From the NCBI GenBank assembly GCA_040954595.2, contig CM082590.2, forward strand, positions 5,270,001-5,334,000: a stretch of DNA of 64,000 bases, given 5' to 3'. The position numbers and the translations under genes are program-made. The notes under the pieces were generated by a model. That model saw only the letters and a list, made by a program, of their open reading frames with translations, had not been told where the DNA came from and searched no databases. Below, piece after piece: positions 38,601-64,000 of this stretch (within the stretch, counting starts at the first letter, position 1; the number at the start of each line of letters is the position of its first letter). Origin of the DNA: Balanoglossus misakiensis. Taxonomy: Eukaryota > Animalia > Hemichordata.

Positions 38601-41600
38601 ATTACAATATTCAGAATAAGTGAATAAATGAATAATTTCATAGTATCATTGCAATAGATAAATAATAAATAAATACATAAATAACTTGAAACATCGATGA
38701 AACAGTCGAAGTGGAAAATAGTGTGACGATACAATGTTTGACAAAGATAAGTAGAGATATGAAAATCATTTTACCCGTCGCAAAGATTTCACAAGGGTTG
38801 TCTTTCCAACACCACCAAATCCACAGACATGAACTCTGCTACTATTTCGGGTGATGCCTGGTTCTCTCATCAAAACAGTGAATTCCTTCTTCCTCTGTTC
38901 GGCCTGATGTCAACAAAAAGCACAGAAATCATTGTGAATAGACTTGCCAAATATTGTCAAAATGGACTGTGATATCAAATGAACACGACACTGGCATTAA
39001 TGACAAAATTTGGCTACGACAGCCTAGTCATCATACATATAACAAATTAATCCATTTAGATATATGCAATGTATTTCAAGAGTTTATCAAAAGTGAAAGT
39101 CGTTCATCAGCTAAAATCTGGTAGTGTTTGATAACGTTTAGTCACATTCGTTAAATTCTGGTTTGTTATGCACATGTCAAAGTGCGGTGATTATGAATTG
39201 TGGATGAAACAATGAATTAGAAAAAGGATACCTGTAAGTATCATTTATTGGTAACAGTAACATGAAAGGAACAATATTGTTGGTATTGTCAACAAGTGCA
39301 CAAGTTCCTATTACAGACCCCAAAGTAAGGAGTACAATATTTTAGACCTACCAATTAATGTAACTTAAACGAAACCACATTTAGCAACAACAATTGTTTC
39401 ATAAGCATTACTTTGAAATATAAATTAGACTCAGAGAGGTAAAAACTAAAATCACAACTCTCCAAATTGTTTCTTTTGGTTTTTGTTCTGGAAATGAATA
39501 ACTTGATCTCATTGATGGTTGTATTACAAGTATTACTGTTCATTTTGAATATGACAGTTACTTGTATTTATGGGAAATGTTACCTTCAGCAGGGATTTGA
39601 CTCTTCTGTCGTCTGCAACATCCAGAGGTGTCTTTCCGCCCTGTAACGTGGAAAAAGGATTTTAAGCCCATTGATATGATTTGGTTGAAACTGCTTCATG
39701 ACGTTTTATATGGATCTTCACAAATCTACTATTTGCAAAACACGTATGCCTCTGGTTGGAATTTACTTGAGTATCGAAATGTGACAGTCGGGACAATTTC
39801 CATGGTTTTCTTGTGTTAAACTTTAAAGGGGAGTTCTCGTGGCGCTTTGATTGCCTCACTAATCTCTGCAAATAAAAATGGCTGCTATGGATAGTAGTTA
39901 AGCGAGTGTCACTGACAGTACTAGTATAATGGTGACAGTACATGTTTTGTGCGAGAGAGGGTGGTGTCAGAAGGACTGATATGAGACGACATTACGAAAG
40001 TGATAGTTTGACATGGCGAGCAAACGTGATAGTACAAGCATCATATCATCAGTGGGACTGTCGCATTCGAGGCGTTTTGACCCTCGAGCGAAGTCGCACC
40101 CATGGTGCAATGCCCTTATAGTGGGGTGGCATAACAAAAAAATTCATATCGATTGTGCATTTTGTGATAAAAAGCTCAGATGGGTGTTAATGTGTAATTA
40201 ACTCCATCGGCCATGTAACGCCGGGAACACATAGACTTGTACGCAGGGCTAGGAACACACATTCCCTTACGCACAGACACATACGATACAACCCAACTCA
40301 GAACTCAGCACTCGGCATGAATTGAACGAAGAAATTGCTCCAGCAAAGCCAAAGGGATGACCGTATGTACATGAATACTCATACACATTTGAATGTCAAG
40401 TTTGTATTGATTTTACGGCCACCAAGCAGAAATTCGCTTGAGGGTTTTGACAAATAACATCGGAGGAGGCAAGTGACAGTCAAACATCAGAAAACTGATT
40501 ATGTCTCATGACACGCGGCGACGGTGTGATTTTCGACATTACCTACACAGTCATAAATTTCGACAACATGTGGTGGGAAAGTATTTATAAAAAAATGTAC
40601 GCATGACCACAGCAACACGTGGCAAAGGCGAGCCAAATTCTGACATGAACATTGCGATCATACTGGTGAATTTTACGGCTTCCCAGCAGCCAGCAATCTA
40701 GACTTATCAACTGAAGACCCATCTCCGAAAAAGGTTGGATATTCAGAAATTTTCACTTAGTTTAAATCCTCTTTCCTCATGCAACGGAAGATGTGGAATG
40801 TTTTAAAAAATCTATGCTTTTCACTAGCTTCCGCCCATTTATATAATACGCCCTTTACGGTAACAACAAACTGTACCCGGAAACACCTACACTAGATGAT
40901 TTCATGTCTTCTTACAATTTACAAACACAGAGAAAAAACTGCCAGATTTGATCACCCTGAAATTTTACCCATCCTAAATGCAAAATACATAATAATTTAT
41001 CAAGCCATAGGCCGACCTCATGGCAAGTTTCTACGCTTATTTAAGCCTTCAATTAGGATTGAGCATTGTTTGAATCGTGAACTGGTAGCCTAGGTCACAC
41101 TATATAGGGATTACGCGATATACTCATGTCATCAATGGCAAATTGAGATCTAGCCAATCACAGATTTTCAGTGGGTGGCACACGCGAAAGAAAGAGCGCC
41201 AAATACGTCATTTCAGCCATATATGGGCGTATGTAAGTTGGAGGTGACTGTATACCTTTAAGCATGCACTGCTACACACATTCTGAAACATTCATTTGTG
41301 AGATAGCACAACATGTTTTGCCGAAAGTTTTTTTTTTTTTTTTTTTTTGGGGGGGGGGGGGGGGGAGGGTTAATTAATAGTAGGATACATCCCAGTCCCC
41401 CACGTAATGGACATGAATGCATGATGTGGTGATAGGGCTCTGTCCTTTGAGGGTACATTAACATCACAGGTATTCGTTTACTTGAGATTTATAATACACG
41501 CGTGTGTTGTTTTCATTTGAAGATGCCCTCTGTACAATACCTCAAACAGACAATGATTTAAATATAATAAAAACGTGTCAACTGGTGTGTGAGTGTAGAA

Positions 41601-44600
41601 TAGAATTAGTGTCATTACAGTAACTTACATTATCCTGCACATCGATGCTGGCATTGGATTGCAGTAGATGTTTCACCATGTCAGCATGGCCATCCTTTGC
41701 TGCCTTGTGTAACGGTGCCGAACCATACTGTGGGAATACAACAAATATGTGTCACTGAAAATTCCTGACTATAAGCCTAAAATGGAATATGCAATGTTTC
41801 ATTAAGCATGCACTGTTACACACATTCTGAAACATTCATTTGTGAGATGGCACATGTTTTGCCGACACTTTTTTTTTTCCTTTTTTTTGGGGGGGGGGGG
41901 ATAAATTAATAGTGGGATACATCCCAGTCCCCCACGTAATGGACATGAATGCATGATGTGGTGATAGGGCAGTGTCCTTTGAGGGTACATTAACATCAAA
42001 GGTATTCTTTTACTTGAGATTTATGATACTAGCGTCTGTTGTTTTCATTTGAAGATGCCCTCTGTACAATACCTGAAACTGACTGACCTAAATATCATAA
42101 AAGCCTAGACAGCAGTTTCATTACCCCTTAAAAGAGCATTGGAATTAGCCAATCAAAGAACGCCAATTATGAATGAAAGGTAAGAAATACGTTGAACCAC
42201 TATTGACATTCAACTAATTATGGTGGACTTCAGCCAGACAACTTTTTTAGTCTCGCCAGCCAGACCTCTCTCTCTCTGTCATTCGACGGCATAGCCACAC
42301 GAAGTGCCCCACGAGCAGTGAAGCCACAAGAATCGAGCATCGGAGACAATGTCGCAACTTGAGGCGCCCTTCGTGTGCCTGTGCGCGGCGTCGAAGGATC
42401 GAGGTCTGGCCAGCGAGTAGTCTCGGTTACCCAGAGCCCTCTGCTTCTTCCAGTGGGCACTCCAGAAAGAGGGTCTGGGGAAATACCATTGACAAATTGC
42501 AGGGAAAAGATGGCCGCCTTGAGACAAAAAGCGATGCAGAAGCGGTCCAGAAATATCATGCAAGGGGTGGAGGGAACAGCGTTCAGCCGTCTCGATGGAC
42601 TCTTGCACACTCAAATGACGGATGCAATGCACTGAGTGTGTAATGTGTTGAAAACTGCATCTGCTGGCTCTGAACCTTTAGCGCAACCGAAGTAATCTAA
42701 GTAATTAATGCATCGGTACACACAAACATACGACACAACCCAACACAGAACTCAGCACTCGGCATGAACTGAAAGCAGCAAATGCTTCAACGAAGCCAGA
42801 GTTATTTTTGACTGAGAAGGAAACATGAGGGGAAAGAAGCGAGTGCGGTTCATCAGTTATTGTGCCGTAAAATTAACCCAGCGCCAGGCTTTGAGTCTAT
42901 TGACACCATTTTGGTGTGACCATGAAGTAACATCAAAGTCATTGTTGTGATATATCTGGGATATATTCAAGGAGAGCACAAGAGGACACAGCAGACAGTT
43001 GTTCATTCAACTTCAGGGAGCCCTGTAGTACAGTTTATTACTACGCATGCACACACTACGTCATCATGAATACATGCATATATTACACTGCCTTCCCTTT
43101 AAAAGAAATTGGGTGGCTTGACAAACTTCAACAAATGTCAACTTGTAAACACAACATCTTTGTTAACAACAAAACTACTGAAATTACAAATTCAGTTTCA
43201 CAACAGGTTTTCTGACTCTGTCTGATCTCCTTACAGGTTCTGCAATATTTCCAGGTTTCACTTGTGTATTCTGACTTTGTGTAGCTTGGCCAGAATCACT
43301 AGCAACTTTCACATCAGTATTTTCCACTGGTTGTGGTTTACAAGAATTCTGAACAGGAATTGTACTGAACATTTCAGTTACTGGTCTTTCACAGATATCA
43401 AGATTAGTCAAAACTGAATCATTGAACTCAGTCATAGGCAACTCAGTTTGAAACTCTTCCATGGTTTTCAACATATGATCAGCATGAACTAGTTTAGTCA
43501 TGGATCCTATTTTCACAATGTAATTTCGAGGTCCTTTGACTTCAATGATCGACCCCAATAACCATTTGTCATGTTTGGACTGTGGTCGAGGATTTTTCAC
43601 TCTAACCACATCACCTATTTCAAAGTATCGCTCTTGTTTTCTAGAACGATCAAATTGCTCTTTATGTGCTTCCTGTTTCTTTTCAACCCTTTTAGCCAAA
43701 CAAGGTTTTATCAAACTCAATCTGGTACGAAGCTGTCTTTTACACATCAATTCAGCTGGACTAACACCTGTTGTGCTATGAGGTGTGGTTCTATACCTCA
43801 ATAGAAAATTAGCTATTCTACGTTTCAAAGACATAGATGATCCACCAGCTAAAACTTGCTTAGTGAAACTTTCTTTCACAAGTTTAACTGCTCTTTCAGC
43901 AGCACCATTAGACGCAGGATGATATGGAGCTACTTTAGTAATGAATACCATTTCTTTTCATGAATATGTCAAATTCAGCAGACGTGAATTGTAGGCCATT
44001 ATCTGAAACTAACTGTTCAGGAAGACCGTGTTCAGCAAATATGAGCCTTAACTCATCAATTGTACACTCTGCTGTTATGCTTTTCATTGGCTTCACATCA
44101 ACCCATTTAAAATGACAATCAACAAGAATAAGATAATATGATGTCTTATCTTCACAAAAATCAATATGCACCCTCTGAAAAGGTCTCATTGGCCAAACCC
44201 ATGGATGTAATGGTAATTATATTATATCATGCTACCGTCCGTGATTCTGATTGGACGAGAGCTGAATCCAGCGATGGTAAAATACTGTTTTACCATGGCT
44301 AGCAGTGGTAAAACGGGCCCCTGAACTAGCATTCGGCAGCAAAAATGTGCGGTTAAACCACAGTCGCGCGTGTTTAAACCAAATAAATAAAACAAAAATA
44401 CTGTTGAATTAACGGACGTTTTATTTTGGAACTGCTCTGTGGATATATTTGTCGCCTTGCCACGCGCGATGCCCGTCTTGTCACTTTTTGTCGTCTGCTG
44501 CATGTTTAATGCTCGATCCCGGCCGCGCATGTTTACATTCGTCGTCGCCATTTTGGTTCACGATCGTAATTTCTCTTTCTGACGCCGTTTCAGTAAGAAA

Positions 44601-47600
44601 ATGACACTGATATGCCACAAAAACAGTTGTTGATATAATATAATAGCAATAACCCCCGCCTCAGTCGGGTATACACTCGATTTGGGTACAATTCGCTCCA
44701 TATAGCACTCGCCTGACGGCTCGTGCTATATGTCTCGAATTGTACCCAAATCTCGTGTATACCCGCCTGCGGCGGGGGTTATTGCTTAATTTACTGGGTG
44801 TTGGTCTTGCTCTCTGACATACTGAACAAGCTTTGACCTTGGATTCAATATCAGAATCAATTCCTGGCCACCACACATGACTGCGTGCCAGTGCTTTCAT
44901 TGCACATATTCCTGGATGTTCCCAATGAAGTTCATCCAGCAATTTCTCTCGAAATTTCCTTGGTATGACAACCCTGAGACCCCAGAGAATACATCCTCGT
45001 TCTAGAGATAATTGATCTCTTTTGTGATAATACGGTTTCAATGCATCAGGCATGTCTGTACAATTCTTTGGCCAACCATTCAAAACATAATCATACACTT
45101 TACAGAGAATTGGATTGACCCTGGTTTCTCTAGCAATATCATCGGCTAGAACTGGAAAACTCTCATCAAGTATACCCACAGCAAATACTTTGGAATCAGC
45201 ATCAGTATTGTGCTTACTTGGATTTGGTAATCTTGACAACGCATCACAGTTAGCGTGTGCCGTTGTGTTACGATACTCAATATCATAGTCATATGCCTGC
45301 AGAATTAATGCCCAACGTTGCATTCTTGCAGCTGCTATGGTAGGGACACCCGCTTTTGGACCCAAAATAGCCAGCAGTGTGATCTGTTACAAGAGTGAAT
45401 TTTCTCCCATACAGAAAATCATGAAACTTCTTAACTCCAAATATCAATGATAATGCTTCTCTTTCAATTTGAGCATAGTTACGCTCGCTTGGGCTGAGCG
45501 TTCTAGAGGAATACGCTATTGGTCTCTCATCACCATTTTCGAACACATGTGAGAGAACTGCTCCAACGCCATAACTTGAAGCGTCACAATCAAGCTTCAA
45601 TTTCTTACTCTGATCATAGTGTACCAACAAGGTCTCACTAGTCAAGTTTGCTTTACATGTCTCATATGCTTTTTGACATTTATCGCTTCATTTCCAAACA
45701 ACACCTTTCTTTAACAACTCATGTAGAGGCTGCAATGTGGTAGCTAAATTCGGTAAAAACTGATGGTAGTACTGTACCATACCCAAAAATGAACGCAATT
45801 GTGATACATTATTTGGTACTGGAGCCTGTTTTATGGTTTGTACAGAGGATTCCACAGGTTTCAATCCTCCACCAAATACACAGTGCTAGACTTTGCAAAT
45901 TCACACTTTGACAAATTTACGTGCAAATTATTATCACTCAATCTTTTGAGAACTTGTTCCAAAATATCAAGATTCTCATGAACATTGTCACCCCCAATAA
46001 GGATGTCATCTTGTTTCCAAACACATTTCTGAACACCTTGAAGGATACAATCCATCTTAGTCTGAAATATTTTTGGCGCAGACTTCACACCATATGGTAA
46101 CTTTGTGTACGAGTACAGACCTTTATGAGTATTAATGGTCAAATACTTTCTACTTTCGTCATCAACTGACAATTGAGCATAAGCATGTGTCAAATCCAAA
46201 CGTGTGAATACTTTTGACCCCGACAGTTGAACATACAAATCTTGTGTAGTCGGTAAAGTACACTGCTCATCCTCAACTACTGGATTAATACTTACTTTAT
46301 AGTCACCACAAATTCTGACTGTTTTATCAGCTTTGGGCACCACTAGTATACGATTGGACTTGCCCACTCACACTGATCAACTTTAACTATTACCCCATTT
46401 TTTTTCCAGTTTTGCCAATTCTGTTTTGACTGCTCCACGAAGCGCATATGGAACTCGTCTTGGCTTGTGAAATACATGTTTTGCACCCTCTTTGACACGA
46501 ATATGAGCTTTGTGCCCACGCATACCATCATAGCTATCAGTAAATATGTTACTGTGCTTACGAAGAATCAAATCAAGCCTGTCTTTTGTTTTGGCAGTCA
46601 AACAATCACCAGCTTTTCCTTTACTGATTGTTTGGGCAGTACACAGAAATATCTTACACCAATTTAATTTCAATTTCTGCAACCAATTTCTACCAAGCAG
46701 GGTTGGTTTACCTGGGTGGTCCACTACTATCAATGGCAAATCGACACACTGACCATCATAACATACTGTGACCAAAATTTCACCACAGACCGAAATTGGA
46801 TCTCCAGTATAGCTTTTCAGTCTTACCGAAGATTTCCTCAAGGGACTTTGACTGAATTTCTTGTTATACTCTGTTTTAGACATGATACTGTAGTCAGCTG
46901 CTGTGTCTACGTGCATTGACACGGACTTACCATTCAAATCTAGGCTTACAAAATAGCCAGATTTTTCTCCACTTACATTCATATTGATGGAGGATACAAC
47001 ATTATACACACATGAATCAGAGTCATCACTGTCTTCAACTGTTTCAGTGACTGACTTTACAGATTTAACCATAGGCCTTTTGTCACTTCTGACATTTCCC
47101 TTGGCCTTCACTTTACCTCTAGTTTTACAAAACTTTGCAAAGTGACATTGTTTTGAACACTTTTGACATACTACATTTTTATGTGGACACTCTTTCGCAA
47201 AATGATTGTTTCCACATCTGAAACACTGTACAGTTTTAGAATGTTCACGTTTTACAACACTGTTTATAACAGTACTTTTACCGTGAAGACCTGTAGTAGT
47301 TTATTACTACGCATGCGCACACTACGTCATCATGAATACATGCATATATTACAATTGTGAAATTTTAACAAATATTGCATAATGAGGCAATCCTTAGAAT
47401 AACGCTGTCCGACCATTGAAAACCGATTCCACAGCTTCAGTAGTATCAAATAATGCATCATCTAAAGGTTCCTGTTCTCAAGACGTTGAAATTTGCTTTA
47501 GACACAATTTTGGATTCACTTTCCGGTTCAAGAAAGTAAATGTTATCAATTTTAGCTCTATAAACCGTCATTAGATTAATGGAATAATATTAAATATGCC

Positions 47601-50600: not shown

Positions 50601-53600
50601 TGGCCATGGCAACTATTTTAAAACTAGTTTAATTATACAGTAGTAAATAGCGTTAGCGTTACGTCCAAAAGAAGTCGACCACTTCCCCATTGTTAGCTTG
50701 CGTTACACGGCCTCCACCGGTCGCCTACCGCCGGGAACTCACAGACCTGAACGCAGGGCTAGGAACACACATTCATGTACGCACAGAAACATACGACACA
50801 ACCTAACACAGAACTCAGCTATCGGCATGAACTGAAATAGGCACACGCTCCAGCAAAGCCTGAGTTATGACCGCATGTACATGTAGACTCATACACGGCC
50901 GCCAAGCAGAAAAGTCGTTTCGGGATTTTGACAAATAACATCGGAGGAGGCAAGTGACAGGCAATCATCAGGAAACAGATTATGTCTCATCACAGTCCTT
51001 CGGGGACGGTGTGATTTCAATATTACCTACACGTGGTGGGAAAGTATTTAATATAAAATTTAATATATTTAATATAACGAACGGTGACAGCAATACGTGG
51101 CAAGCCAAGTTCTGACAGGAACATTGCGATATTATTGGTGAACTTGTAGGGCTTCCTAGCAGCCAGCAATGCGCGGAATTAGCATATCCTCCGGCGGAAC
51201 AGCTGCATTTCCACACCTACTGAACCCAACTCTGTAAAGGTTGGATTTTCAGAAATTTGCACTTACTTTCATTCCATTCTTCGTACAACGGAAGATGTGG
51301 AACATGTTTTGCTTTACAAAAATCTACGTTTTTCATTAACTCCCCCCTTAATTTGCATAATACGCTCTTTTCGGTAAAAACAAACTGTACCAGGAAACGC
51401 CTACACTAGATGATTTCATGTCTTCGTACAAACACAGAGAAATAAACTGTCAGGTTTAATCCCCCTGAAATTGTTCCTTGCCTTTATACATAATTTTTCC
51501 AGACATCGACCGACCGCGTTATGGCAAGTGTCCACGGCTGTTTAGCCAACATCGAGAAACTTAGATTTAGGCTTATATTGAGCATTTGTGAACAGATAAA
51601 CAGTTAGGCGTAGGTCACACTATACATGTATAGGGCTCAGTCGATATACTCGTGTCAACAATGGCGCGATTCAAGCGCCTGTACCACCTGTTGCAGTCAT
51701 CACCTCAACAAGCTGACTGACTAAATACTTGGAATCGGACAACAGTGTGATAAGGTTTATCAGCGGAATCTAACCGACGTGCCAAGCTCAATGCAATGCA
51801 GGGCCGGGTTAACGCAGATTTGAGTCTTAGCAAGGCTGGCTTCTCTAGCTTGAGTGGTCGTCGCGTCGAGCGCTCTGCATGGATGATACACGTCCTCCCA
51901 TACCAGCGCAATCCCCACTGCAGTCGCCTCGACCTACTAGAATTATCAATTGCCGTCATGCCCAGTCTACGCTACAGTGGGCTGCTTTCTTCATTCAAAA
52001 AAATAATTCTAAAAATAGAATTTCAGGGTTTTATGGGCAATTTTTTTCCAACAAACAATGCACACAAGCGCAGCGCGATGAGAGATTCCGTTTTATAACC
52101 AGTTTATTTATTATAATGTGGTGTGGCAGGCAATATAATTATTGGTCAGAACTGGAATAGAGGATTTCTTTCATGCTTTTATCATTAGAAGGGGCTCTCA
52201 TTTATTTTACCTATATTACAATACACATTTATATTTACAATAATATAAATCTGCTGATCTTGATCTCACATTCATCACAATAAACAACACTCTTTGCTCA
52301 TTCAATAAAAAAAAAACATTACTTCTTGCTCTGAATGATTGATTTCTTTTTTTTAAATCATGATGGAACAATCCATAATTAACGAGACAGGCTGTCGTTT
52401 TTAAAATAGGTTGTTAAGTCTGGGTCGTTGGGAATAAGGCAGAGGAATAGTCGTTAACTATTTATTTTCATTTACCTATGTTCAAAAATGTGTGATATTG
52501 ATAACAAAACGTGACAACTGATGTGTGCGTGTAGACTAGAATTAGTGTGATTACAGTAACTTACTTTATCCTGCACATCAATGCTGGCATTGGATTGCAG
52601 TAGAAGTCTCACCACGTCACCATGGCCATACCTTGCTGCATGGTGTAACGGTGCCCGACCACCCTGTGGGAATACAACAAAATGGTGTCGCTGAAAATCC
52701 CTGACTATAAGTGTATAATGGAACACGCAATGTTTCATTAAGCATGCACTGTTACACACATTCTGAAACGTTCATTTTTGAGATGGCAGAACATGTTTTG
52801 CCGACACTTTTTTTTTGGGGGGGGGAGGGGATAAATTAATAGTAGGATACATCCCAGTCATCCACGTAATGGACATGAATGCATGATGAGGTGATAGGGC
52901 AGTGTACTTTGAGGGTACATTAACATCACAGGTATTCTTATACTTGAGATTTATGATACGCGCGTGTGTTGTTTTCATTTGAAGATATCCTCTGTACAAT
53001 ACCTCAAACTGACGATGATCTAAATATTATAAAAGCCTAGACAGCAGTTTCATTACCCCTTAAAAATGCATTGGAATTAGCCAATCATAGAACGCCAATT
53101 ATGAATGAAAGGTAAGAAATTTGCGGAACCACTATTGACATTCAAATGATTATGGTGGACTTCAGCCAGACAACTTTTTTTGTCTCGCCAGCCAGACCTC
53201 TCTCTTTGTCATTCGACGGCATAGCCACACAAAGTGCGCCACCAGCGGTGAAGCCACAAGAATCGAGCATCGGAGACAGCGTCGCCGCTTGTGGCGCCCT
53301 TCGTGTGCCTGGCCGCGACTTCGACTGAAAGCGAGGTGATGACGGTTTATGAAAGAATCCCACTTTGTAGATTTTCGGTTGAAAAGTCATCCCAAGTTTG
53401 GGGATTATTCCGTTGAAAAGTGACGCTTCTGGGTGGCACATACCCGTACACCTTCCTATGGGAGAACCCCCCGGCCTGTTGTGCAGGGTACATGGCACTC
53501 CTACAATTTACAATTATTTATTTTCGGAGCTTTATTTCGCTTCGTCGTTGTTACTGACAGCTATTACACTACAGTTTGTTTAAATATAAAATAAATGTGT

Positions 53601-56600
53601 CATCGTGCATGTAGCAATAGTTCATGGTTAGGTCCCTAACTTTCGGTCAAAAAGTTAACTATTGGTAGATTATTTATCGAAAAATCTAATTACGAATTTC
53701 GATATGAACACCCTGAACCCAACCTCTCGAATTACTCGACATTTTAATAAAATATTGCTTTATAGTGGTATGATATTCAAAAGTGAATTGGTTGGTCTCA
53801 AAAGAGATGAGAATTTAACTTGGCCGCAGGTATAGCCACTGTCCAAAAACTCTCCCTCAAACTCTTTCATACTCTTCATAATCCTATTATGCATGTCGGT
53901 TTATTGCACTAGTTTCGTGATTGACATCCCGAAGTTCGTCAACACTACAAAATATAAGTACAGAGTCACCTTTTTGGCCGTTCGGGCTATTGGTGAGTAA
54001 GCATGTAAAGCCACTTACCTTATCCTTAGCATTGACGTCAGCTCCATGGTCGATCAACACTTGTGCCACTTCCAGTTTATTGTACCGGGCTGCCACATGC
54101 AATGCTGTGGATTCATCCTGAAATTGACAAATCCATTTGAATTAAAATAAACACAAGCTATGTTCCAATGTTGGACTTGTAAGGTGATATGGCTATAATT
54201 TCAATGGAATTGATTTTTAACTGTAAGTGTTCACTGTGTTGAGTTAAATGTGTGTAGCATCTATAGTTGTTTCAGACCAAAACACACTATTGTTTCAGAG
54301 AACATTTATAACGTGTCCTATAGATTTTTCTAACAAGTGTAAGTGTAACACTATAAAATTATAATGTAGCGCACTATACATGTTTATGCACACTCATCGG
54401 CCCCACAGGTCTTAATATCATTTCATAAATTACATTGATATTTTGAAATTTCCAATCAGACTAAGTACTCTAACATATAAACATGACGGATGTGATACAC
54501 CCGACACAAACAATCCCCTGTTTCTCTGTTGATGTTGGTACGTACGGTACATCAATGTTATAATTACTGAATGTTGCTAGGAAACATCAGAAAAAGAATT
54601 GTCTAAACCAATCTGGACATTTCTCTCAAATTTGTATTTTTTTAAAAAGCGTTTTAGTATACATTGAATGGAACTGAAATCACATATGTCTGGTTCACTG
54701 AATTTAACAAAAAACGTAAAAGTAAAATTGTGGTCGCGCAAATAAGTGTGAAAGTGGAGTTCACTAAACAATTTGAATTCGCCCTTCTAATTAACACAAG
54801 AAAGTTGCTTGTTGAATTTATGTGACCAATCTGATTAAAATCAGATGTAGAGTTAGGCGTTGTCTTTACCTAATAGATGGTGATCATTTTGGCTGTTCTG
54901 TTCTCTGTCTTGGCCTTTCTCGGGTGGATGGTCCGTATCCGAACAGAAAAGCCAAGAATCAGCAATAGTAAAGCCACCGCCTAACATCCGATTTTACCAG
55001 ATAGTTATGTGCCAATCTGAAACGGTCTCTAAGCTCACAATGGCACATAATGCATGGGGCACATGCAATCACTAGCATCCTTCACAAATAAAGATATCGT
55101 CCAAATGGCAACTCTCCAGCCTGCAATGCCACAGATTCCACATATTCTTCGGGTGTCCGCAAATGAAACATTTCAACCTGGCCTTGTCACGACTCTGATA
55201 TTCTCCCTGTATTCCCCATAGACAAGCACTATGTCCTTACTCTGGCATTGTTCTATGTCCATCGAGGTACAGTAACACGTTCATCTTCACACATGTGTGT
55301 TTACTCAATCAAGTAATTTCTACAGCTAAGATATCCATCGAAGAGCCAGAGGAAATAAATATTACAATTAATCAACAGCTGCCCCACCTCAAAGATTCAA
55401 ATCACGCCTGAAGAATACACTTGTAATATAAACACCACAGACTAAAGAAATCCGCACTTGTTGTTTGTGAGGGCAATCAACGGCACTCTTTTCCATGACC
55501 ATATTCACCTGAATTTCGGTCGACTTACGACGCGGGATTTTTAATCTCTACTGTGCTGCTTTTGGGGTTTCAATTATTTGTAAACACTTTCATGTTTTAT
55601 GACATTTGCAAACATCGATCTGGATTTGTCAATAACCTCGCCACAGACTGTTACTGGTCACAATATACAGATAATTGGACATTTCATCCAAAACTATGTT
55701 CTTATTCGTTTCGGTTCCAAATTTCTCATTCTACCCTCAAATTGATATAAGAGAAACAAAGGAGGAAACAAGCTTTATATTTTGACACGTTTTCTATTTC
55801 AAATGCATTAAGCTTGTATATGAAACACAGGAAAGGTTTGTGTTCATCTGTGAGTCAAGGTCAATTAAATCTTTTGTCGCTTCAGATTCGTTACCTGTGT
55901 GACTGGGTTGTACGTGTGAAATGTTGAGTGAGGCAGTGTAAATACTTACAAAGATCAAGTATACACCCTTTGCATTGACATCATAGCCATCATCTATCAA
56001 CGATTGAATCCTTGCAACATCACCATCCTTAGCGGCATTAATGAGATCCTATAACATTCAGTGAAACATACAATTGTTATTTTTAATTATTCCGTTAAAT
56101 ATAAAATTCTTCAGTATTTGAACAGACCGTTGATTATGAACAAACCAAATCACAAACACCCAAGAAATAATACCTAAACTGTTATATCACATTGTATAAA
56201 CTTTGTGCATCGATGATATGGAAAAGTATTCTAATTACACATAAACGTACACGGCTTACACCAAAATATAGATACATGTACTGGAAAATGCCCGGATGAG
56301 CCCTTGGACTCATGATACAGCAACAGTCTCAAGAGAACGGTGAACAAATGCAATGAAAATATCACCATATGAATGTTTGTCCAAACTGTGTGGGCAAGTT
56401 ATTGTGTAGCTGTAGTAGTGTGTGGGTCGCGCGACAGCTTTGTATACCTGGTCGCTGATGTGCTTCCCAAGAAGCATTTTTGACTGTTTGATAGGGCTTG
56501 CATGATTGTCATAAAAGAAATGGGAACAAGGTTATGGTCAATTCACTGTCCAGCCACTCTATTGTTATAGTCTACAGATTTGGGATGTCGTCCTGTTGGT

Positions 56601-58564
56601 CAGAACATGGAATCCACAACCGACGTGGTCAGCAAAGAACGTCACGGCACGGCTGTCACTACACGGCCAAACGGATAACACTTGTTTCCGTTGTGATCAG
56701 CCATAATGTCACGGTCCATGTAGACTAGTTCATTTCTATCGGTTAGAATGTCTCATTTTCATAGTAGTTAACCGTATGCGCATAGGGACTGGTCAGTTTC
56801 TTTTATTTTTCTCTTATGTAATGAATGCAATGAGGTCAGTTTCTTCGACGGGGGTGGATTCTATTTTGTGGATAACAAAAAGTGACTGACCCGACCCCCT
56901 CATTGAACATGGAAAAAATGGGTGAAAATTCCAAAACAGGGTGACCTCTCCCATGAATACACCGCCCCCACCCAGGCCTAATAAACTGACCAGTCCCTTA
57001 TTTCGAAATGCATATGCCATTCTTCTTTGGAGTTGTGGATAATTCACGCACGCGTATAATATCCCTTCATGGAAAAAAAATGTGAGCTTTGATCGCGAAT
57101 AATAAAACATGGTGCAGACATTGCTAAAAGGAAACCATTCCATCGGTTAAATCACGGTCACAAAATACTGGAATTCCAACAAAACAAAAACAATGAATGA
57201 TACGACAACCAGCCCACAATGCACTTCTGAGAACAAAATGACTGACATGTAAATTTGAACAGATGAAGAACTTGCTGGTGTATACCCCCCCCCCCCCGTC
57301 TTGTACATGAAGGCAGAAGACAATAGACCACACTGAAATGTGCTAGTACCTCAATAATTTTTGTAGACATAACTGTTTATTAGAAATAAAAGAACTGATG
57401 CATGGTGTACCTTAATCTTACGTTGAATTGGGATTAAAGCGTTCATTAGCAACTTCTTCACTATGGTATATTAGTGTCTACAGATTTGGAACAAACATTC
57501 TGTGATGAAAATAATGTTTATGGTCAGTAGATATCACAACTTCATGTTTACACATGCACCGATTTAATTTAATTTCTTTTGGGATTACAACAAATATTGT
57601 GTTCTTGGAGAGAGAGTCAGTGTAAAAATGTCGAGGGGATAAATATTCATTTCTTTTTGTTCTTCCAAACTTAAGCGAGGGGTTTGGGTTAAATGAAAAT
57701 AGTTGCATTTGACATGCCTCACGTCATGCATTATTTTCGTGATTTTACTATCAAAGTTCGGTCGGTCGATTTTTAAAAGCTTACTCGAGGGTATGCGAAA
57801 ATGTATCATCAACCTGTCGTGTCGTCTGTCGGCAAAGGATACGGAGAAGATTGAGTCAGCTCATGCGGAATTAATAATTATCCACGACCCCTTATGACCA
57901 ACACCATGCCTGCGTCACCTTGAATGAACTCATTTCGGGTCAAAGGTTATAATTTGGTTTGGCGTCAATCTGACTGCCCCATATATAGACACATTGCCGG
58001 AATAGTTACAAAGTAATACAGACATGGATTTCAATGGGTGTTTTATCTAAAGCTACAACTTGCTCATAAAATTGTGTTTACTTGGGACTTGCTCAACCGG
58101 TAAAATTATTTTTGAAAAATATCGTTCAATGAGACTTGGACTTGTGAATGGAAAACATTGTGATTAGTGTGACTTTTTTGTCAACTGGGTAATCGTTTAT
58201 TTATGAATGCACTATCTAGCAATACACACAAACACTAGAAGTTTCTATATTTTCCGTGTGTAGGGCAAGCTGACCCGTTGAAAAATAATAAACCTATTAG
58301 GCACCGACTAGCGCCACAAGTCTTAACGAAACAGTCATTTGTTTTGTGACCAAAATGTCTGGTTAAATTTACGTGCATGGAGTTGAAGGGAGAAATTTTG
58401 AACAACAGTCCTCAGTCCCCCAAAAATCAAACAAAATATAAACCCCTCATAAAAACAGTCGTCGTACGCGTCACTGCCAGACATCGTTGCATTTGGTGTG
58501 AAATGTCAGTTGCTACAGTTAACAGTTCACTTACCAGTGGATCCTTGACTTTTCTGGAAGCCAT
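34357..58564 (-). CDS. Kinase-less DAPK-like ROCO protein, ANK-ROC-COR-death domain, 12 coding exons, 911 aa: complement(join(34357..35604,35960..36145,36704..36852,37272..37419,38128..38421,38775..38903,39584..39640,41629..41727,48960..49058,52565..52663,54019..54117,55950..56048,58535..58564)) - 13 segments including the short start exon
   Basis: All junctions are GT-AG and phase-compatible; total 2736 nt, no internal stop. GTPase motifs [15 protein letters not shown] and SRAD. COR motifs [10 protein letters not shown] and PGLFPRLQ. C-terminal death-fold signature [10 protein letters not shown]...[10 protein letters not shown]. Confidence 0.85.
35655..35930. repeat. Degenerate (ATGT/ATGG)n intronic microsatellite
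   Basis: Directly visible. Confidence 0.8.
35960..36145 (-). CDS. ROCO exon, COR start (KEEKIPRLC...YLDSIGE)
   Basis: AG/GT, 186 nt, phase 0-0. Confidence 0.88.
36704..36852 (-). CDS. ROCO exon, ROC end (AKWVVEK...LVNCHESQS...GFK)
   Basis: AG/GT, 149 nt, phase 1-0. Confidence 0.88.
37272..37419 (-). CDS. ROCO exon with G4-like motif (TNIWAQF...[11 protein letters not shown])
   Basis: AG/GTAAGT, 148 nt, phase 0-1. Confidence 0.88.
38128..38421 (-). CDS. ROCO exon with switch I/II (TPTPGIDV...[13 protein letters not shown])
   Basis: AG/GTGAG, 294 nt; classic ROC DFAGQxEYYxTH motif. Confidence 0.92.
38775..38903 (-). CDS. ROCO exon with P-loop ([18 protein letters not shown])
   Basis: AG/GTAA, 129 nt, Walker A motif. 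Confidence 0.92.
39584..39640 (-). CDS. C-capping ankyrin exon ([19 protein letters not shown])
   Basis: AG/GTAA, 57 nt, GxTPLDxA motif. Confidence 0.85.
39650..42400. repeat. Intragenic duplication: 39690-41150 ~ 50250-51660 and 41571-42390 ~ 52505-53315 (includes an ankyrin exon); extra intron-only copy at 41258-41570
   Basis: Long co-linear matches by eye; near-identical ORF-track peptides at 41258, 41802 and 52772. Confidence 0.85.
41629..41727 (-). CDS. Ankyrin exon 5 ([33 protein letters not shown])
   Basis: 99 nt, phase 0-0, CAG/GTAAGT. Confidence 0.88.
42248..42420. mobile_element. Academ-like MITE, followed by a second TAGTCTCG-starting element
   Basis: TAGTCTCGCCAGCCAGACCT...AGGTCTGGCCAGCGAG inverted termini; partial copy at ~53180-53315. 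Confidence 0.45.
43184..47290 (-). pseudogene. Frameshifted gag-pol of the Gypsy element
   Basis: Zinc knuckles CFRCGNNH..C and [10 protein letters not shown]; protease VDTAA; [22 protein letters not shown]; RNase H CDASSYG, IEREAL; integrase [24 protein letters not shown]. Split over seven ORFs. Confidence 0.92.
44214..44791 (+). mobile_element. Crypton-like non-autonomous element inserted in the Gypsy integrase
   Basis: TAATT direct repeats at 44214-18 and 44787-91; removal restores [30 protein letters not shown] (44216) pairs with 44631-44644. ~140-nt terminal hairpin 44645-44786. Confidence 0.7.
47538..48045. repeat. Two-copy ~250-bp diverged tandem repeat
   Basis: AATGTTATCAA...CCGACAAATA.TTGGAGCATTT...GATGTTTAAAGCTAT occurs twice. 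Confidence 0.7.
48960..49058 (-). CDS. Ankyrin exon 4 ([33 protein letters not shown])
   Basis: 99 nt, phase 0-0, CAG/GTAAGT. Confidence 0.88.
49791..49882. repeat. (CAT)n(CAA)n compound microsatellite
   Basis: Directly visible. Confidence 0.95.
52565..52663 (-). CDS. Ankyrin exon 3 ([33 protein letters not shown])
   Basis: 99 nt, phase 0-0, CAG/GTAAGT. Confidence 0.9.
54019..54117 (-). CDS. Ankyrin exon 2 ([33 protein letters not shown])
   Basis: 99 nt, phase 0-0, CAG/GTAAGT. Confidence 0.9.
54828..55003. mobile_element. Small MITE with imperfect TIRs
   Basis: ATCTGATTAAAATCAGATGT..GTTAGGCG versus CGCCTAACATCCGATTTTACCAGAT. Confidence 0.5.
55010..55520 (+). mobile_element. Degenerate Tx1/L1-clade LINE ORF2 C-terminal fragment
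   Basis: Frame-hopping peptides [23 protein letters not shown] and [13 protein letters not shown] match the zf-RVT region and the following helix of Tx1-type ORF2. Confidence 0.55.
55950..56048 (-). CDS. N-capping ankyrin exon 1 ([33 protein letters not shown])
   Basis: 99 nt, phase 0-0, TAG/GTAAGT. Confidence 0.85.
56785..56997. mobile_element. PIF/Harbinger-like MITE
   Basis: GGGACTGGTCAGTTT...AAACTGACCAGTCCC flanked by ATA/TTA. Confidence 0.6.
58535..58564 (-). CDS. Probable first coding exon of the ROCO gene ([10 protein letters not shown])
   Basis: ACCATGG Kozak context, GTAAGT donor, phase 0 matching the next exon. Confidence 0.65.
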
Positions 58565-59041: not shown

Positions 59042-61464
59042 GTCAGGGGAGAACACAGTCGCATAAGGATTGTGTTGTGTTTACACAACGATCACTTCTG
59101 ACACTTTTCTGTGTCATAGGCGATCGACGTGTTATACAATTCAAACCCCCATGCGACTATGGGGGAGAATCACTGCATTCCATTGTGATGACGTATACAA
59201 ACGACATGCAATGAATTCAAATATTACAAAATACACTTGACCTAGTTGGCTTTCAGTCAATTATGCGTGTTGTGCCAGACAGTATGTGACTGACCGACAG
59301 TTGAACCGTCCTACTTCACAGCCCAGTGCAGTTTCATATATCATATACATGTACTGTGCTGTCAACTTCAGCAGTGCCTGTAATCATGTGATTGTGAGTG
59401 TATATCATGGCACGTCTACGACTACATTTACAATCGAGGATTTTGTTTCGTTTGTCAGTTGTGGGTGATTTCCTGTGAGTGTTTAGAAATTTAGTATTTC
59501 CCGTCTTTGCAAATTGGCATTTTTCCCAATATGTAGCATTATATCCAAATACCACATTCTTGCCAACTGTGTCTTTAAATTTGGAATTGTTGCATGAGAG
59601 ATTGAAAATCAGAGTATATTATATAAAAAAGAATCCACTCTCATACAATCAATTTTAAGTGGTCAATGACTTTTAATGTACTGTACATTAAAATAAAAGA
59701 TAGAATTCATAAGATGTAGAAGTAGTAAAACTTTTCTAATATATAATTCAAGTGACCATCCAAAATAATCTATAAACTCAAAAATCTCTGGTAGAATGAA
59801 GCTGAAGCAAGTGCTGGCAATTAATGATTTATTTCAAACTTATATTTTTAATCATTTCATCACCATGGTTTAGCTTAAATAAATTGTCTTCTATAGTAAA
59901 ATTGGACCTCTATAGAAGGAAATGGGGTTAGAAGAATTAAGGTAGTCTTGTACCTTGAAAAATAAAGTCTTAAATTTAGACCCAAAAAATTGTGTCATGG
60001 TGCAAATTTTAAATGAGAGAACAAGACTAAGTCAAGTTTGAAATTCATAGTGGCCACCAATGTCAGTGTAAGCTCAATAGAGAATAGTTGCAGAAGTGAT
60101 TTTTATGAAAACATACCTGAGTTTTTGATAGAGCTGTTTAGAATATTACTGCTCTAACAATTTTTAATTTGAGACAATTTTATCATGCAACTTTTACGGT
60201 GAATAATTAACTTTTTTAAAAATTTTGAGTATTCATGTAAATATGAACTCAATTTTTAGAATGATTTTGAAGGTGCATGTTAAAAACCAAACATGAGAAG
60301 CAAGTGGGAATAGTTCATGTCTTGTATTGCAATAATTTGGCGGCCCATGTTCCACTCGGGGGGAAAATGCCAACGAAGGAGACACACATATACACAAAAG
60401 ATTGCAAAAGTAAACGATTTATTTTAAAAACATCAAGGATTAAAAAACACAAAAATCCTTCTGGCAGTGAAGAAGCAGTAAAAGTCTTCATTAAAAAGAT
60501 TTCTAAAATCTGCAGTTGATGAAACTGCATTGCACAGGATTGGTAAAATTTGTAATATTCATATCCAAGACAAGGTCGGTTCAACCCCACATAGAAAACA
60601 ACAGGTTTGGACTGAACCATTGTGGTGAAAGGGTACAAAGCACCCAAGTTTCCACAAAACATAAGTTGTGATCTGTGAAAATCAACAAGATTTCATTGGC
60701 AGGCTCCTGTAAGCTTTGCAGACTGTTACTTTAAAATTCTCATTTATAAAAATGGACTTGCAGGGCAATCACACGCTGACCATCAAATTCAGTGTAACTT
60801 TCATTAAGGATGTACAACTGATAAAAGTGAAAGTATTGTCATTTTTATGGTGGATTTTAAGTTGCCCAGGCTTTTCTAAGTGTACCAAAAATCTGTAACA
60901 AAATATAGGGGTCACTGTGCTTGTTTTTGAAATACAAAGCTGTGAATTTAGTCAAACTTAAAAACAGCTGAGTAAGTTTTTTTACCATTGGGTGTCTATG
61001 GCCAAAAAAGTTATTTCAAAATTGAGTGTGTGCATGGTGACCACAATATTTTGTTTGAGTTCTGATTTTAATTTCCATGAAATGACGATAGTAGAAGTGC
61101 GTTTTCCGGGAATTCCCAATGTAATCCTCTGGGAGAGACAAATTCCATGTGCTCCAAGTTTGCATACATCCTTAACTGACCATCAGCACCAATGCTGCAA
61201 TAGAACAGAAGTGTATGGTTAGAAATTGAGCATTTCAGACCCTAATTGCTCTAGCCCTGGACTGGTCATTAATTCAACATATATTGAAAACTATAAGTAT
61301 CTTTTCTATAAACACCGAGAAATTGACAACTAACAATGTTTCAGAGACCAAAAATAGATTTAAGGGGACCTATTGCTTGCAAGGCTGGTTCATTTAAAGT
61401 CCCAAATTGCTGCTATTTCTTGCAATATTTTTGATTTACTTCAAACTGTGAATAGGCCATTTAA

Positions 61465-62454
61465 AGGGTCAAAGTCTCTCCCTCACTGCCATTTTCCCAT
61501 CAATTATGTTTGATATACGACGCCGCTTATATTAGAGTACATGTGTATATATGTAGTGAATGAACGTTCGACCACACACAACTTCCATCCCACTTGTATG
61601 AGATGAGGGTAAAATTTGGCCCAAAATGAATAAATTGTGGAGAACGATTATTTATTTTGGCAATTTTTTTCACTCCTGTGTCTACAAGCGGGATAGAAGG
61701 TGTATGTCCTGTTTGTAGGATGAGAGTAAAAATGTCACCAAAATGAATAAACGGTAAACACCGATTATTCATTTTATCGAGTGTTTCACTCTGCTCATGT
61801 GAGTTGTGTGTGGAAGTTATTACGATTTTGTTGATCAACTGAAATTAATTTCATTTGGTCAGGCTATGTATGTCATCCCCACAAATCTCGAGGATGCACT
61901 GTTACTCAGGGGTCATGAAAGTGGCCTATTCAATTTACTGACACTCTAATGCAATGCAAGTGAATGGGCGTATTCATCTGTAAGTTTCTGTTCAAAAGTT
62001 CTACAACCAGATACACAGGACTTACCTCCATACGGACCACCGCTCTGACGACCACTGCCACCGTAACCACCAGAACCACCACCGCTGCCCCTCACTGGTC
62101 CAAAATTTGACTGTCCACTGGCATAATTGCTTCCAAAGTCATTGTAGTTTCCACTACTGTTGCTATACCCTTTAATTTAGAAAAAAAAAACAATAGAAAT
62201 GCATTATCATAACAATAGTACTATGCAAAATACCTTGAATTGTTTTACCTGTTGAAAAAACTCGAGAAAATGAATATCAGTCTCTAAAATTTATGCATTT
62301 TGGACCAGATTTTACTCTCAACTCTCATATCATACAAGGGGGATGGAAGTTGTGTGTGGTTGAACGTTCATTCATTACATATACACATGTACAGTGTCTT
62401 GTATCAAACATAATTAATGGAAAAAAAGGGCAGCGAAAGAGAGACTTTATCCCT
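61465..62454. mobile_element. TTAA-flanked Kolobok-like element with ~180-bp imperfect TIRs enclosing a host exon
   Basis: TTAA|AGGGTCAAAGTCTCTC...GAGAGACTTTATCCCT|TTAA. Arms ~61465-61643 and ~62281-62454 are inverted copies. Confidence 0.65.
62026..62169 (-). pseudogene. Isolated hnRNP A1/A2-family exon encoding the M9 PY-NLS (GYSNSSGNYNDFGSNYASGQSNFGPVRGSGGGSGGYGGSGRQSGGPYG)
   Basis: 144 nt, AG/GTAAG, phase 1-1; matches YNDFG..SNFGP..R..GPYG of hnRNP A1 M9. No other hnRNP exon found in the window. Confidence 0.8.
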
Positions 62455-62621
62455 TTAATGTTCAGTCAATCTAGACAAGAGGGACCCAAAGTTAAGGGAC
62501 TTTCAAAAATTGGACTTTATAGACAGGTGGCCTTTATAGACGGGTTGATTAATATACATGTTTATATTAAAATCTTGGAAATGACGAAATTCTACAGCCA
62601 AATTCAGATTCGAATACACAC

Positions 62622-62749
62622 CTTGAAATGGTTGGCTGCCTGTTTCAATCCAACATCAGTATCCAAATTTTGAACTCAAGCAATTTGGCTGTGAAGTGCA
62701 GCCATGTTGAACAAGACACAAGCCTTCTCAAAAGAGGATGATGTCATAC
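62622..62749 (-). pseudogene. PDCD6IP: Isolated ALIX BRO1-domain exon with an in-frame stop (MTSSSFEKACVLFNMAALHSQIA*VQNLDTDVGLKQAANHFK)
   Basis: 128 nt, TAG/GT; recognisable match to ALIX EKSCVLFN..AL.SQIA..QNLD.D.GLK.AA.H. TGA at 62676-78. Confidence 0.85.
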
Positions 62750-63154
62750 CTATACAAAACAAGAAAAATACAAGATTGAATCATTCATATGGATTACATT
62801 ATGTTGTCCCCCAAAATAATATGTGCTGTTCTGATTAGTACCATACTGTTAAAGAGTGATGAGGAATGATCAAATTAATTATTTTTGGATTTAATTTATA
62901 TTTCTTGTGGTGGCTGGGAACACAGTTTACTCTGTAGAACAACTTTACAGTGAAAGAGTTTTAAACTGCGCCCTGTCGAATTATACCATGGAAGTTTTTG
63001 AGTGAGATGTGATGTACCAGTGGTTGGGTATACTTAGACAACAAGATTATCAAGTGAACCACAGGAAATAAAAACCACAGGTAGTGTTTCATATATCTTT
63101 GAAATACAGTAGAAGGAGATCATATAACCTATTTCTCACAACTTTTTGGTTTAA

Positions 63155-63239
63155 CCCTTTCACCCCCAGTTCCCTCTATAGAGGTCCAACTTTATTATAG
63201 AAAACAATGGGTTTGGACTGAACCATGGTGGTGAAAGGG
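63155..63239. mobile_element. piggyBac-like MITE (partial copy ~60590-60635)
   Basis: TTAA|CCCTTTCACC...GGTGAAAGGG|TTAA. Confidence 0.7.
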
Positions 63240-63681
63240 TTAAACCCGAGTGGACAGACCTGCAATGCACAAAATCAGGGTTGAAAGTGTTCAGAGTTTG
63301 ATACATGTATTACATATACGAATTCTTTGCCATGATACATGTACGTGTGAAACATATATTGTATCATCTCCCTATTTAAAATCAGTGTGCCCTCTAAGCC
63401 CATATGACGCGCCACTGACTCAACAAACTCACTTGAGATTCAAGAAAATTATCCACTATACATGAAAAGGTATAGGGCTGACTCAGAGAAATTGTTCAGA
63501 AACTTGAATATCAATTTTGGAATATTTTGTTTGGCTCAGGCTGATATCTTTTACTTGTGGGAAGAGGCAACAGCATAAGAATACCGTACAGCATGAAGTA
63601 AAAAGTGTCAAGGTACCATACATTTGATTTGAATCAGATTGTGATAATAGATAATTTTTACTATTTGACAAATTGACTTAC

Positions 63682-63738
63682 CCATGTTGCATCATCATTA
63701 TCTGTGTTCCTTCACCACAGTTGATCAGATAACGGCAA
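63682..63738 (-). pseudogene. ELAC2: Isolated tRNase Z(L) N-terminal exon (CRYLINCGEGTQIMMMQHG)
   Basis: 57 nt, TAG/GTAAGT, phase 2-2; matches the RYLFNCGEGxQR motif, with the conserved R changed to I. The next ELAC2 exon was not found downstream. Confidence 0.7.
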
Positions 63739-64000
63739 CTAGAACAACAAAATATACGTACCATGTGTCAAATCCCTTTTTTATAGTCTTTGAAAAACTA
63801 TCACTAGGGAAGGATATGGTACAATTAGCGTTGCTACCTATGATTTTTTGGTGTGAAAATTGTTTTACAGTTGCATGATGAAGTAAATATGGATGATCCA
63901 CTTCACAGGAACATTGCATGATTTAACTGAACTGTCATTTGCAGTACTTATTTTTGTGACCTTACTCTCTGAAAGTTGAATGTATCAGACATCATGTCAG

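What the first reader, a model, noticed from the sequence alone, without database searches (positions are those of the whole stretch)
61465..63738. Mosaic of single exons from three unrelated housekeeping genes (ELAC2, PDCD6IP/ALIX, hnRNP A) within 1.8 kb
Seen: three minus-strand exons with intact splice sites and flanking intron-like DNA at 63682-63738, 62622-62749 (in-frame TGA) and 62026-62169. Their phases (2-2, 1-0, 1-1) do not join, and I found no further exon of any of the three genes. Established: Helitrons and Pack-MULE/Pack-CACTA elements collect such DNA-level gene fragments, usually co-oriented; this is best documented in plants and a few animals. Inference: this is the cargo of a gene-capturing transposon or a capture hotspot, sitting directly 5' of, and co-oriented with, the ROCO gene.
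Basis: partly seen in the sequence, partly recalled or inferred. Interest (0 to 1): 0.82.

Follow-up and report, generated by a model that had tools for sequence, protein, structure and literature searches.

The report
Transposon patchwork of three copied exons
Upstream of an immune-type gene in what is likely an acorn worm, single exons copied from three unrelated housekeeping genes sit in a multi-copy patchwork of small jumping elements; they were likely pasted in by DNA-repair copying and are likely dead cargo, a known kind of gene-fragment capture seen here with three donors at once.

Summary
Confirmed. Three co-oriented exons (ELAC2, PDCD6IP/ALIX, hnRNP A) with splice sites and intron flanks lie within 1.7 kb; no further exon of these genes was found in the window. 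New: the hnRNP exon is cargo inside a 990-bp element with Kolobok-type ends (TTAA, AG...CT) whose very abundant relatives lack it. An RNA-like run splices the ALIX exon exactly to its normal neighbours with Gly at the window's stop, so an intact parent exists; DNA runs hold the window's stop version plus at least four other versions, and sibling copies share both ALIX junctions. The hnRNP contig in the runs restores Ptychodera-like residues at three sites. An ELAC2 parent was not shown. The outer carrier is unidentified: no Helitron 3' end in 57-64 kb, other end outside the window; segmental duplication remains a rival. Pack-TIRs, Kolobok ones included, are published (PMC8277862). The scan noted similar captures in other genomes but not this DNA. 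Verdict: real, likely dead cargo; new member of a known kind.

The parts
63682..63738 (-). ELAC2 (tRNase Z) internal coding exon copy, 57 nt, phase 2-2, open
63546..63975 (.). Intron-like flanks of the ELAC2 exon; covered by 2-7 contigs per listed position, about 10% diverged versions; listed contigs depart from the window beyond 63975
   Evidence: tables 3 and 8 (X1 rec 8, X2 recs 15, 16)
63317..63502 (.). High-copy interspersed repeat, also at 31409-31508
63151..63243 (.). piggyBac-type MITE (TTAA, CCC...GGG, TTAA), very high copy; further copies at 59847-59940 and 60591-60634
62838..63019 (.). Non-coding piece that also exists at another locus with a different neighbour beyond 62838 (second donor, unidentified)
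   Evidence: X1 rec 6; loose end at 62838 in X1 and X2
62809..62837 (+). Remnant of the end of a second Kolobok-type MITE (better preserved in other versions); the upstream breakpoint of the ALIX piece falls inside it (MITE reading inferred from the terminal letters)
   Evidence: tables 4 and 7
62602..62831 (-). Captured PDCD6IP piece: about 82 nt upstream intron + exon + 20 nt downstream intron (limits from loose ends that are read as the donor locus)
   Evidence: loose ends at 62602 (X1, X2), 62809 (X1), 62831 (X2)
62622..62749 (-). PDCD6IP/ALIX Bro1-domain exon copy, 128 nt, phase 1-0, TGA at 62678-62676 where the spliced parent has GGA (Gly)
62464..62547 (.). Small MITE with a 17-nt tandem unit, shared by sibling copies downstream of the ALIX exon
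   Evidence: (X1 recs 1, 2; X2 rec 9; loose end at 62607)
61465..62454 (.). Kolobok-type non-autonomous TIR element, 990 bp, TTAA at 61461-61464 and 62455-62458, ends AG...CT, arms 61461-61672 / 62458-62253 (76% over 221 columns), carrying the hnRNP piece (a Pack-TIR)
61901..62242 (-). Captured hnRNP A piece (minimum extent): 73 nt upstream intron + exon + at least 125 nt downstream intron
   Evidence: X2 rec 13
62026..62169 (-). hnRNP A2/B1-like exon copy (glycine-rich/M9 region), 144 nt, phase 1-1, open, with three derived amino-acid changes among the listed differences
60270..61460 (.). Rest of the low- to high-copy patchwork (approximate lower limit); no coding hit; 60657-60950 well covered in the RNA-like run
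58535..58564 (-). Predicted first coding exon of the neighbouring ankyrin-Roc-COR-death (ROCO) gene, ends in phase 0
55950..56048 (-). ROCO second coding exon (ankyrin), phase 0-0; Roc, COR and death exons follow to 34357

Best explanation
This is a multi-copy patchwork of 200-400-bp pieces copied from unlinked loci, three of them holding one coding exon each, likely pasted in by template-switch (gap-filling) repair at small Kolobok-type DNA transposons and then likely spread as passengers of a larger non-autonomous DNA transposon, and likely making no protein. Shown: the exons are copies (ALIX parent spliced and stop-free; hnRNP contig with ancestral residues); the hnRNP piece sits between the arms of a TTAA-flanked element whose relatives lack it; the ALIX piece exists in several versions that share its junctions. 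Inferred: (1) a break in the Kolobok-type element was repaired off the hnRNP A gene; (2) the ALIX piece was copied starting from a MITE end present in the donor intron, since the upstream breakpoint lies inside that end; (3) ELAC2 came first (about 10% from its relatives against 3-4% for the other two); (4) the assembled unit was amplified to a handful of loci by a carrier whose ends I could not see; (5) the copies decay neutrally, as phases do not join and two versions carry independent stops.
For: Parent: RNA-like run X3 has loose ends exactly at 62749 and 62622; read by hand on the minus strand they give SWFGGQKKQS before and IAAGIFSHLK after the exon, the latter matching LAAGVFSDLK of homologue P0145. 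At 62678, 10.4 of 12.4 depth in X3 and 9 X1 contigs (410.9 of 447.7) read Gly instead of stop. Window version real: 0 differences over 62648-62710 in X1 and 62617-62710 in X2. At least five versions of the exon among the 24 of 59 contigs shown: window type, one with its own stop at codon 33 plus N27I and A23V, one or two with N27I, and two parent-like ones; a diploid single-copy gene allows two. Shared junctions: X2 rec 14 bridges 62838 (137 and 34 letters) and differs from the window; X1 rec 1 and X2 rec 9 bridge 62602 (50 and 38 letters); another version joins the same small MITE at 62607. hnRNP: the single contig per run differs at 62103, 62095, 62056, giving Y, M, G as in P. flava, and X2 rec 13 leaves the window at 62242, next to the TIR arm. 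Kolobok-type element: TTAA both sides, RR...YY ends (definition PMC9587614); summed depth above 88,000 on the arms against 167 on the exon bin in X1, and joints that skip 61755-61792 to 62340-62423. Piece sizes fit the 224-bp median of animal Pack-TIRs (PMC8277862).
Against: No terminus of an outer carrier was found in the window. No listed contig spans the mosaic, links ELAC2 to ALIX, or bridges the hnRNP piece to the TIR arms; the window's own hnRNP version is not among the contigs shown (24 of 30,607 pieces listed). Which loose ends belong to the parent rather than to siblings is inferred. Only 3 of the 6 (X1) and 15 (X2) hnRNP differences were listed. No ELAC2 parent was seen. Contig depth is not a copy number, and X2 has loose ends at a GATC site (62868/62871), so it behaves like a proximity-ligation library with uneven depth. 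All three runs are one sample and may be the window's source. Two residues that looked like decay against 150 homologues (V32, K42) are native, since the spliced contig has them too. Two non-parent exon versions occur in X3 at depth 2, so some transcription of copies is not excluded.
Confidence: 0.45

Rival explanations
1. Same repair-type captures, but the extra copies come from segmental duplication of ROCO upstream regions or other local duplication, not from transposition of a carrier.
Confidence: 0.27
2. The outer carrier is a non-autonomous Helitron or Helentron that added pieces one after another at its 3' end by terminator bypass; the Kolobok-type Pack element is a nested insertion.
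For: All three exons share one orientation (1 in 4 by chance); divergence and listed depth both fall from the ELAC2 end towards the hnRNP end; sequential multi-gene capture is documented for bat Helitrons (PMC4224331 passages) and coding capture for Heli1Xen1 (PMC12001565 section 18); elements with palindromic ends that I recall as Helentron-like lie at 1-9.4 kb.
Against: No GC-rich hairpin before CTRR-T in 54-64 kb on either strand; best relaxed candidate in 57-64 kb only -4.8 kcal/mol and inside the ALIX exon; no Rep/helicase hit among scanned frames; two of three captures have a TIR-element end at or around the breakpoint; 17 of 19 Heli1Xen1 captures are 5' ends, these are internal exons.
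Confidence: 0.2
3. The exons are used: they splice into a chimeric or 5'-UTR-extended transcript of the ROCO gene (or its paralogues) and are kept by selection.
For: Splice sites intact, same strand as ROCO; the ALIX exon ends in phase 0 like the acceptor of ROCO exon 2; window-type and one sibling exon version appear in X3 at depth 2; published Pack-TIRs often form chimeric RNAs (PMC8277862).
Against: Stop in this copy and an independent stop in a sibling; three of three listed hnRNP differences change amino acids away from the P. flava state; phases do not join; the only X3 splice partners listed are the parent's exons.
Confidence: 0.05
4. Assembly artefact, or the exons belong to the real ELAC2, PDCD6IP and hnRNP A genes interleaved here.
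For: No listed record spans the whole stretch.
Against: Window-specific stop version present in both DNA runs; both ALIX junctions bridged; parent mRNA differs from the window at 4 of 124 positions; neighbouring exons absent from 62 kb downstream.
Confidence: 0.03

Closest known systems
Animal Pack-TIRs, including Kolobok ones (Tan et al. 2021, PMC8277862; seen: passages, section 8, term searches of the supplements)
   Same: Non-TE sequence of a few hundred bases between the arms of a TIR element, parent elsewhere; 8 Kolobok rows in Supplementary Data 1 (2 X. laevis, 4 X. tropicalis, 2 zebrafish); gap-filling or template switching proposed.
   Different: No hit for Saccoglossus or Ptychodera in the 12 supplement files; each row shown lists one donor locus; here a Pack element is nested in a larger multi-copy mosaic with pieces of two more genes, all internal coding exons with both splice sites.
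Gene-capturing Helitrons of bats and Xenopus (PMC4224331, passages; Heli1Xen1, PMC12001565, abstract and section 18)
   Same: Sequential DNA-level capture of fragments of unlinked genes, amplified to several copies.
   Different: No Helitron terminus found here; Heli1Xen1 captures are mostly gene 5' ends (17 of 19).
Plant Pack-MULEs and maize Helitrons (review PMC6431247, passages; details otherwise recalled)
   Same: Fragments of several genes in one element, mostly non-coding outcome.
   Different: Animal host; visible ends are TTAA-specific Kolobok type, not Mutator type.
Non-autonomous Kolobok / T2-MITE elements (PMC9587614 and PMC6004289, passages)
   Same: TTAA target duplication, RR...YY ends, no coding capacity; Kolobok is listed for hemichordates.
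   Different: This copy carries a host exon; arms of about 200 bp, 76% alike.

Membership tests
Kolobok (non-autonomous), element 61465-62454 | TTAA target-site duplication | tested here: met
   TTAA at 61461-61464 and 62455-62458
Kolobok (non-autonomous), element 61465-62454 | 5'-RR and YY-3' termini (unlike piggyBac) | tested here: met
   AG...CT; definition in PMC9587614
Kolobok (non-autonomous), element 61465-62454 | Terminal inverted repeats | tested here: met
   76% over 221 columns; fold-back z=-10.2
Kolobok (non-autonomous), element 61465-62454 | Ends shared with an autonomous Kolobok transposase element; empty site | not testable with these tools
   no genome held
Pack-TIR (hnRNP piece) | Host sequence enclosed by both ends of one TIR element | tested here: met
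   exon 62026-62169 between the arms
Pack-TIR (hnRNP piece) | Ordinary family members lack the insert | tested here: met
   arm depth above 88,000 versus 167 on the exon bin; joints skipping the middle
Pack-TIR (hnRNP piece) | Parental copy elsewhere, not bound to the element | tested here: inconclusive
   contig with P. flava-like residues that leaves the window at 62242; its locus not seen
Pack-TIR (hnRNP piece) | Microhomology at breakpoints | not testable with these tools
   donor letters beyond 62242 were not displayed
Multi-copy Pack-TIR (whole mosaic) | Several copies sharing the chimeric junctions | tested here: met
   both ALIX junctions bridged by versions that differ from the window; ELAC2-ALIX link not bridged
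Multi-copy Pack-TIR (whole mosaic) | Common outer TIRs with distinct target duplications | tested here: inconclusive
   no inverted match between 59.9-60.5 kb and 63.3-64 kb; one end may lie beyond 64000
Helitron | 3' GC-rich hairpin followed by CTRR | tested here: not met
   none in 54-64 kb, either strand; a plus-strand element would have this end outside the window
Helitron | 5' TC end, insertion between A and T, Rep/helicase partner | not testable with these tools
   ends not defined; no genome
Pack-MULE / Pack-CACTA | Long TIRs with 9-11-bp duplication, or CACTA ends with 3-bp duplication (features recalled) | tested here: inconclusive
   no such enclosing repeat among the 25 longest of 59 inverted pairs shown for 57-64 kb; no dedicated CACTA search

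The most novel reading that the evidence does not exclude
An exon-collecting DNA element of acorn worms delivers internal exons of host housekeeping genes to the front of ROCO immune-receptor paralogues, and a sibling copy without a stop splices its phase-0 ALIX exon onto the phase-0 ankyrin exon, giving an animal counterpart of integrated-decoy receptors caught at birth (that ALIX and hnRNP A are used or cut by viruses is recalled knowledge).
Probability: 0.05. Interest if true: 0.8.

Novelty: new member of a known kind. Interest (0 to 1): 0.4.

Why it matters
It is a young (3-4% from the donors for two pieces), dissectable example of DNA-level exon copying in an invertebrate deuterostome. 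Lancelets are reported to have the fastest exon shuffling among animals, with transposons suggested but not shown as the vehicle (PMC4284660, passages). A three-donor, nested, multi-copy mosaic with both splice sites kept is the expected raw material, and it lies next to a modular immune-type gene. With the genome in hand, donors, breakpoints, copy ends and order of capture are all directly testable. Nothing here shows a function.

Tried and rejected
No whole genome was held, so parents and copies were sought in sequencing contigs only. Word-based protein searches found nothing for the ALIX exon or the ELAC2 exon; weak negatives. No RNA holder was listed, although X3 turned out to contain spliced joints. 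X3 shows no cover on the ELAC2 and hnRNP exon bins or on the ALIX introns; not used as evidence, as records are filtered. X2 loose ends at 62868 and 62871 coincide with a GATC site and were dropped as ligation artefacts. The idea that V32 and K42 of the ALIX exon are decay was dropped. A fourth captured exon at 61071-61196 behind a good acceptor: no Pfam hit, PDB hits only by summing 4-6-bit repeats of designed propellers, Atlas scores at most 0.86; rejected. Helitron 3' end scans, hairpin scan and inverted alignment of the presumed ends found no outer terminus. Earlier-finding look-ups near the window, by this sequence, and for Kolobok/MITE/Helitron in this genome were empty. Literature searches for Kolobok capture (0 papers), hemichordate gene-fragment capture (1 unrelated title) and searches listed no title describing such an element in hemichordates; the library is partial and most listed papers were not opened.

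Full report
Observation. The 57-nt exon matches only ELAC2 in the PDB (5 hits, E about 0.002) and the tRNase Z Pfam model (E=9e-4). The 128-nt exon matches ALIX (E=2e-10) and has TGA at codon 24. The 144-nt exon is 78% identical over 50 residues to Ptychodera flava hnRNP A2/B1-like P0001, which fits earlier notes that the genome is likely an acorn worm's. Of 140 frames scanned in 56-64 kb only these three reach E<0.01. No other exon of hnRNP A or ALIX (10 long homologues) is in the window; for ELAC2 the test rests on recalled motifs and Pfam. The neighbouring gene has ankyrin, Roc, COR and death parts and a predicted start at 58564, 3.5 kb downstream of the hnRNP exon.

The hnRNP exon is cargo of a visible transposon. 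It lies between inverted arms 61461-61672 and 62458-62253 (76% over 221 columns; fold-back z=-10.2), with TTAA on both sides and AG...CT ends. TTAA duplication with RR...YY ends defines Kolobok as against piggyBac (PMC9587614, passages). In contigs of three runs of one sample the arm bins have summed depth above 88,000 in X1, the exon bin 167, and listed joints skip from 61755-61792 to 62340-62423, so ordinary family members lack the insert. The one contig on the exon in each DNA run differs from the window at 62103, 62095 and 62056; these give Y, M and G, the P. flava residues, so the window copy is the derived one (only 3 of 6 and of 15 differences were listed). The X2 contig leaves the window at 62242, beside the arm. 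Its depth (126 in X1, 393 in X2) is about three times that of single ALIX versions (20-44 and 74-149), a hint of further collapsed copies. The window's own version and its joins to the arms were not among the 24 of 30,607 pieces shown.

The ALIX exon has an intact, expressed parent. Run X3, listed as DNA by guess, has loose ends exactly at 62749 and 62622; read by hand on the minus strand they continue the frame as SWFGGQKKQS before and IAAGIFSHLK after, the latter like LAAGVFSDLK in homologue P0145. At the stop, 10.4 of 12.4 depth in X3 reads Gly; the main X3 version differs from the window at 4 of 124 positions. The window's stop version is in both DNA runs with no difference over 63 and 94 letters, which argues against an assembly error. 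Among 24 of 59 contigs shown there are at least five versions of the exon, one with a different stop (codon 33) plus N27I and A23V. DNA loose ends at 62602 and 62809/62831 bound a piece of about 230 bp; I read them as the donor's introns, which is inferred. The upstream break lies inside what looks like the end of a second Kolobok-type MITE; the next piece (62838-63019) also exists with another neighbour elsewhere. X2 rec 14 bridges 62838, X1 rec 1 and X2 rec 9 bridge 62602, and all differ from the window, so siblings share the junctions: the unit was amplified after it was put together. X2 loose ends at 62868/62871 sit on GATC and were dropped as ligation artefacts. V32 and K42, rare among 150 homologues, are native.

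ELAC2. Its flanks are covered by 2-7 contigs per listed position; the longest listed differ by about 10% plus gaps, with depth 261 (X1) and 948 (X2), so this part is multi-copy and looks older. A parent was not seen, and no listed contig links it to the ALIX piece, since high-copy MITEs lie between.

Outer carrier. No Helitron 3' end, strong hairpin or enclosing inverted repeat was found; the other end may lie beyond 64000.

Mechanism. Most likely (0.45): template-switch repair at Kolobok-type MITEs copied intron-exon-intron pieces from unlinked genes, and a non-autonomous DNA transposon then spread the unit to a handful of loci, where it decays. Rivals: spread by segmental duplication, with or without ROCO paralogues (0.27; local duplications are plain); Helitron-type sequential capture (0.2; co-orientation and the age and depth gradient fit, the missing terminus does not); use in a chimeric ROCO transcript (0.05; the ALIX exon ends in the phase that ROCO exon 2 accepts, and two non-parent versions appear in X3 at depth 2, but no such joint was listed); artefact or real genes (0.03).

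Comparison. Tan et al. 2021 (PMC8277862; passages, section 8, supplement term searches) list 370 animal Pack-TIRs, median insert 224 bp, 13.4% exonic, with 8 Kolobok rows from frogs and zebrafish and no hit for Saccoglossus or Ptychodera in 12 supplement files. Sequential multi-gene capture is described for bat Helitrons (PMC4224331, passages) and multi-fragment capture for plant elements (PMC6431247, passages); Heli1Xen1 captures are mostly 5' ends (PMC12001565, abstract and section 18). Searches listed no hemichordate case by title, in a partial library; PMC11175523 (passages) does not mention Helitrons. This scan has noted many one- or two-donor captures in other genomes (unchecked) but not this sequence. 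Supplements of the other papers were not read and could hold such cases.

Verdict. New member of a known kind; interest 0.4.

Noticed in passing
window 43019-47353 (minus): LTR retrotransposon (protease, RT, integrase frames, split over several reading frames; terminal repeats 43019-43087 and 47287-47353, 94%) inside a ROCO intron.
   Followed up: partly
window 40202-42394 and 50712-53324: Intragenic duplication in the ROCO gene (69-89% identity) that includes an ankyrin exon (41629-41727), i.e. ankyrin cassette copying as noted for another ROCO gene of this genome (e1-10616120).
   Followed up: no
window 9414-27000: Tandem duplications of kilobase units at 88-92% identity with older internal repeats; no Pfam hit among frames of 55 aa or more.
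   Followed up: partly
window 1-9420: Several copies of an element with 237/238-bp and 155-bp internal tandem arrays and GC-rich palindromic ends, recalled as Helentron-like.
   Followed up: partly
window 60657-60950: Non-coding part of the patchwork covered in the RNA-like run X3 by contigs of depth 27-34 with 0-5 differences; source transcript unknown.
   Followed up: no
window 59847-59940, 60591-60634, 63151-63243: The only three copies of a piggyBac-type MITE found in the window by self-BLAST cluster within 3.4 kb, two in inverted orientation around the ALIX and hnRNP pieces; other versions of the locus have a fuller MITE at 60577.
   Followed up: partly
window 61071-61196 (minus): Open frame behind a strong splice acceptor, no credible family match.
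   Followed up: yes
window 62643-62745, run X3: Two parent-like ALIX versions differ from each other at about 7 of 94 positions, nearly all silent, suggesting very high allelic diversity or a second intact copy.
   Followed up: no
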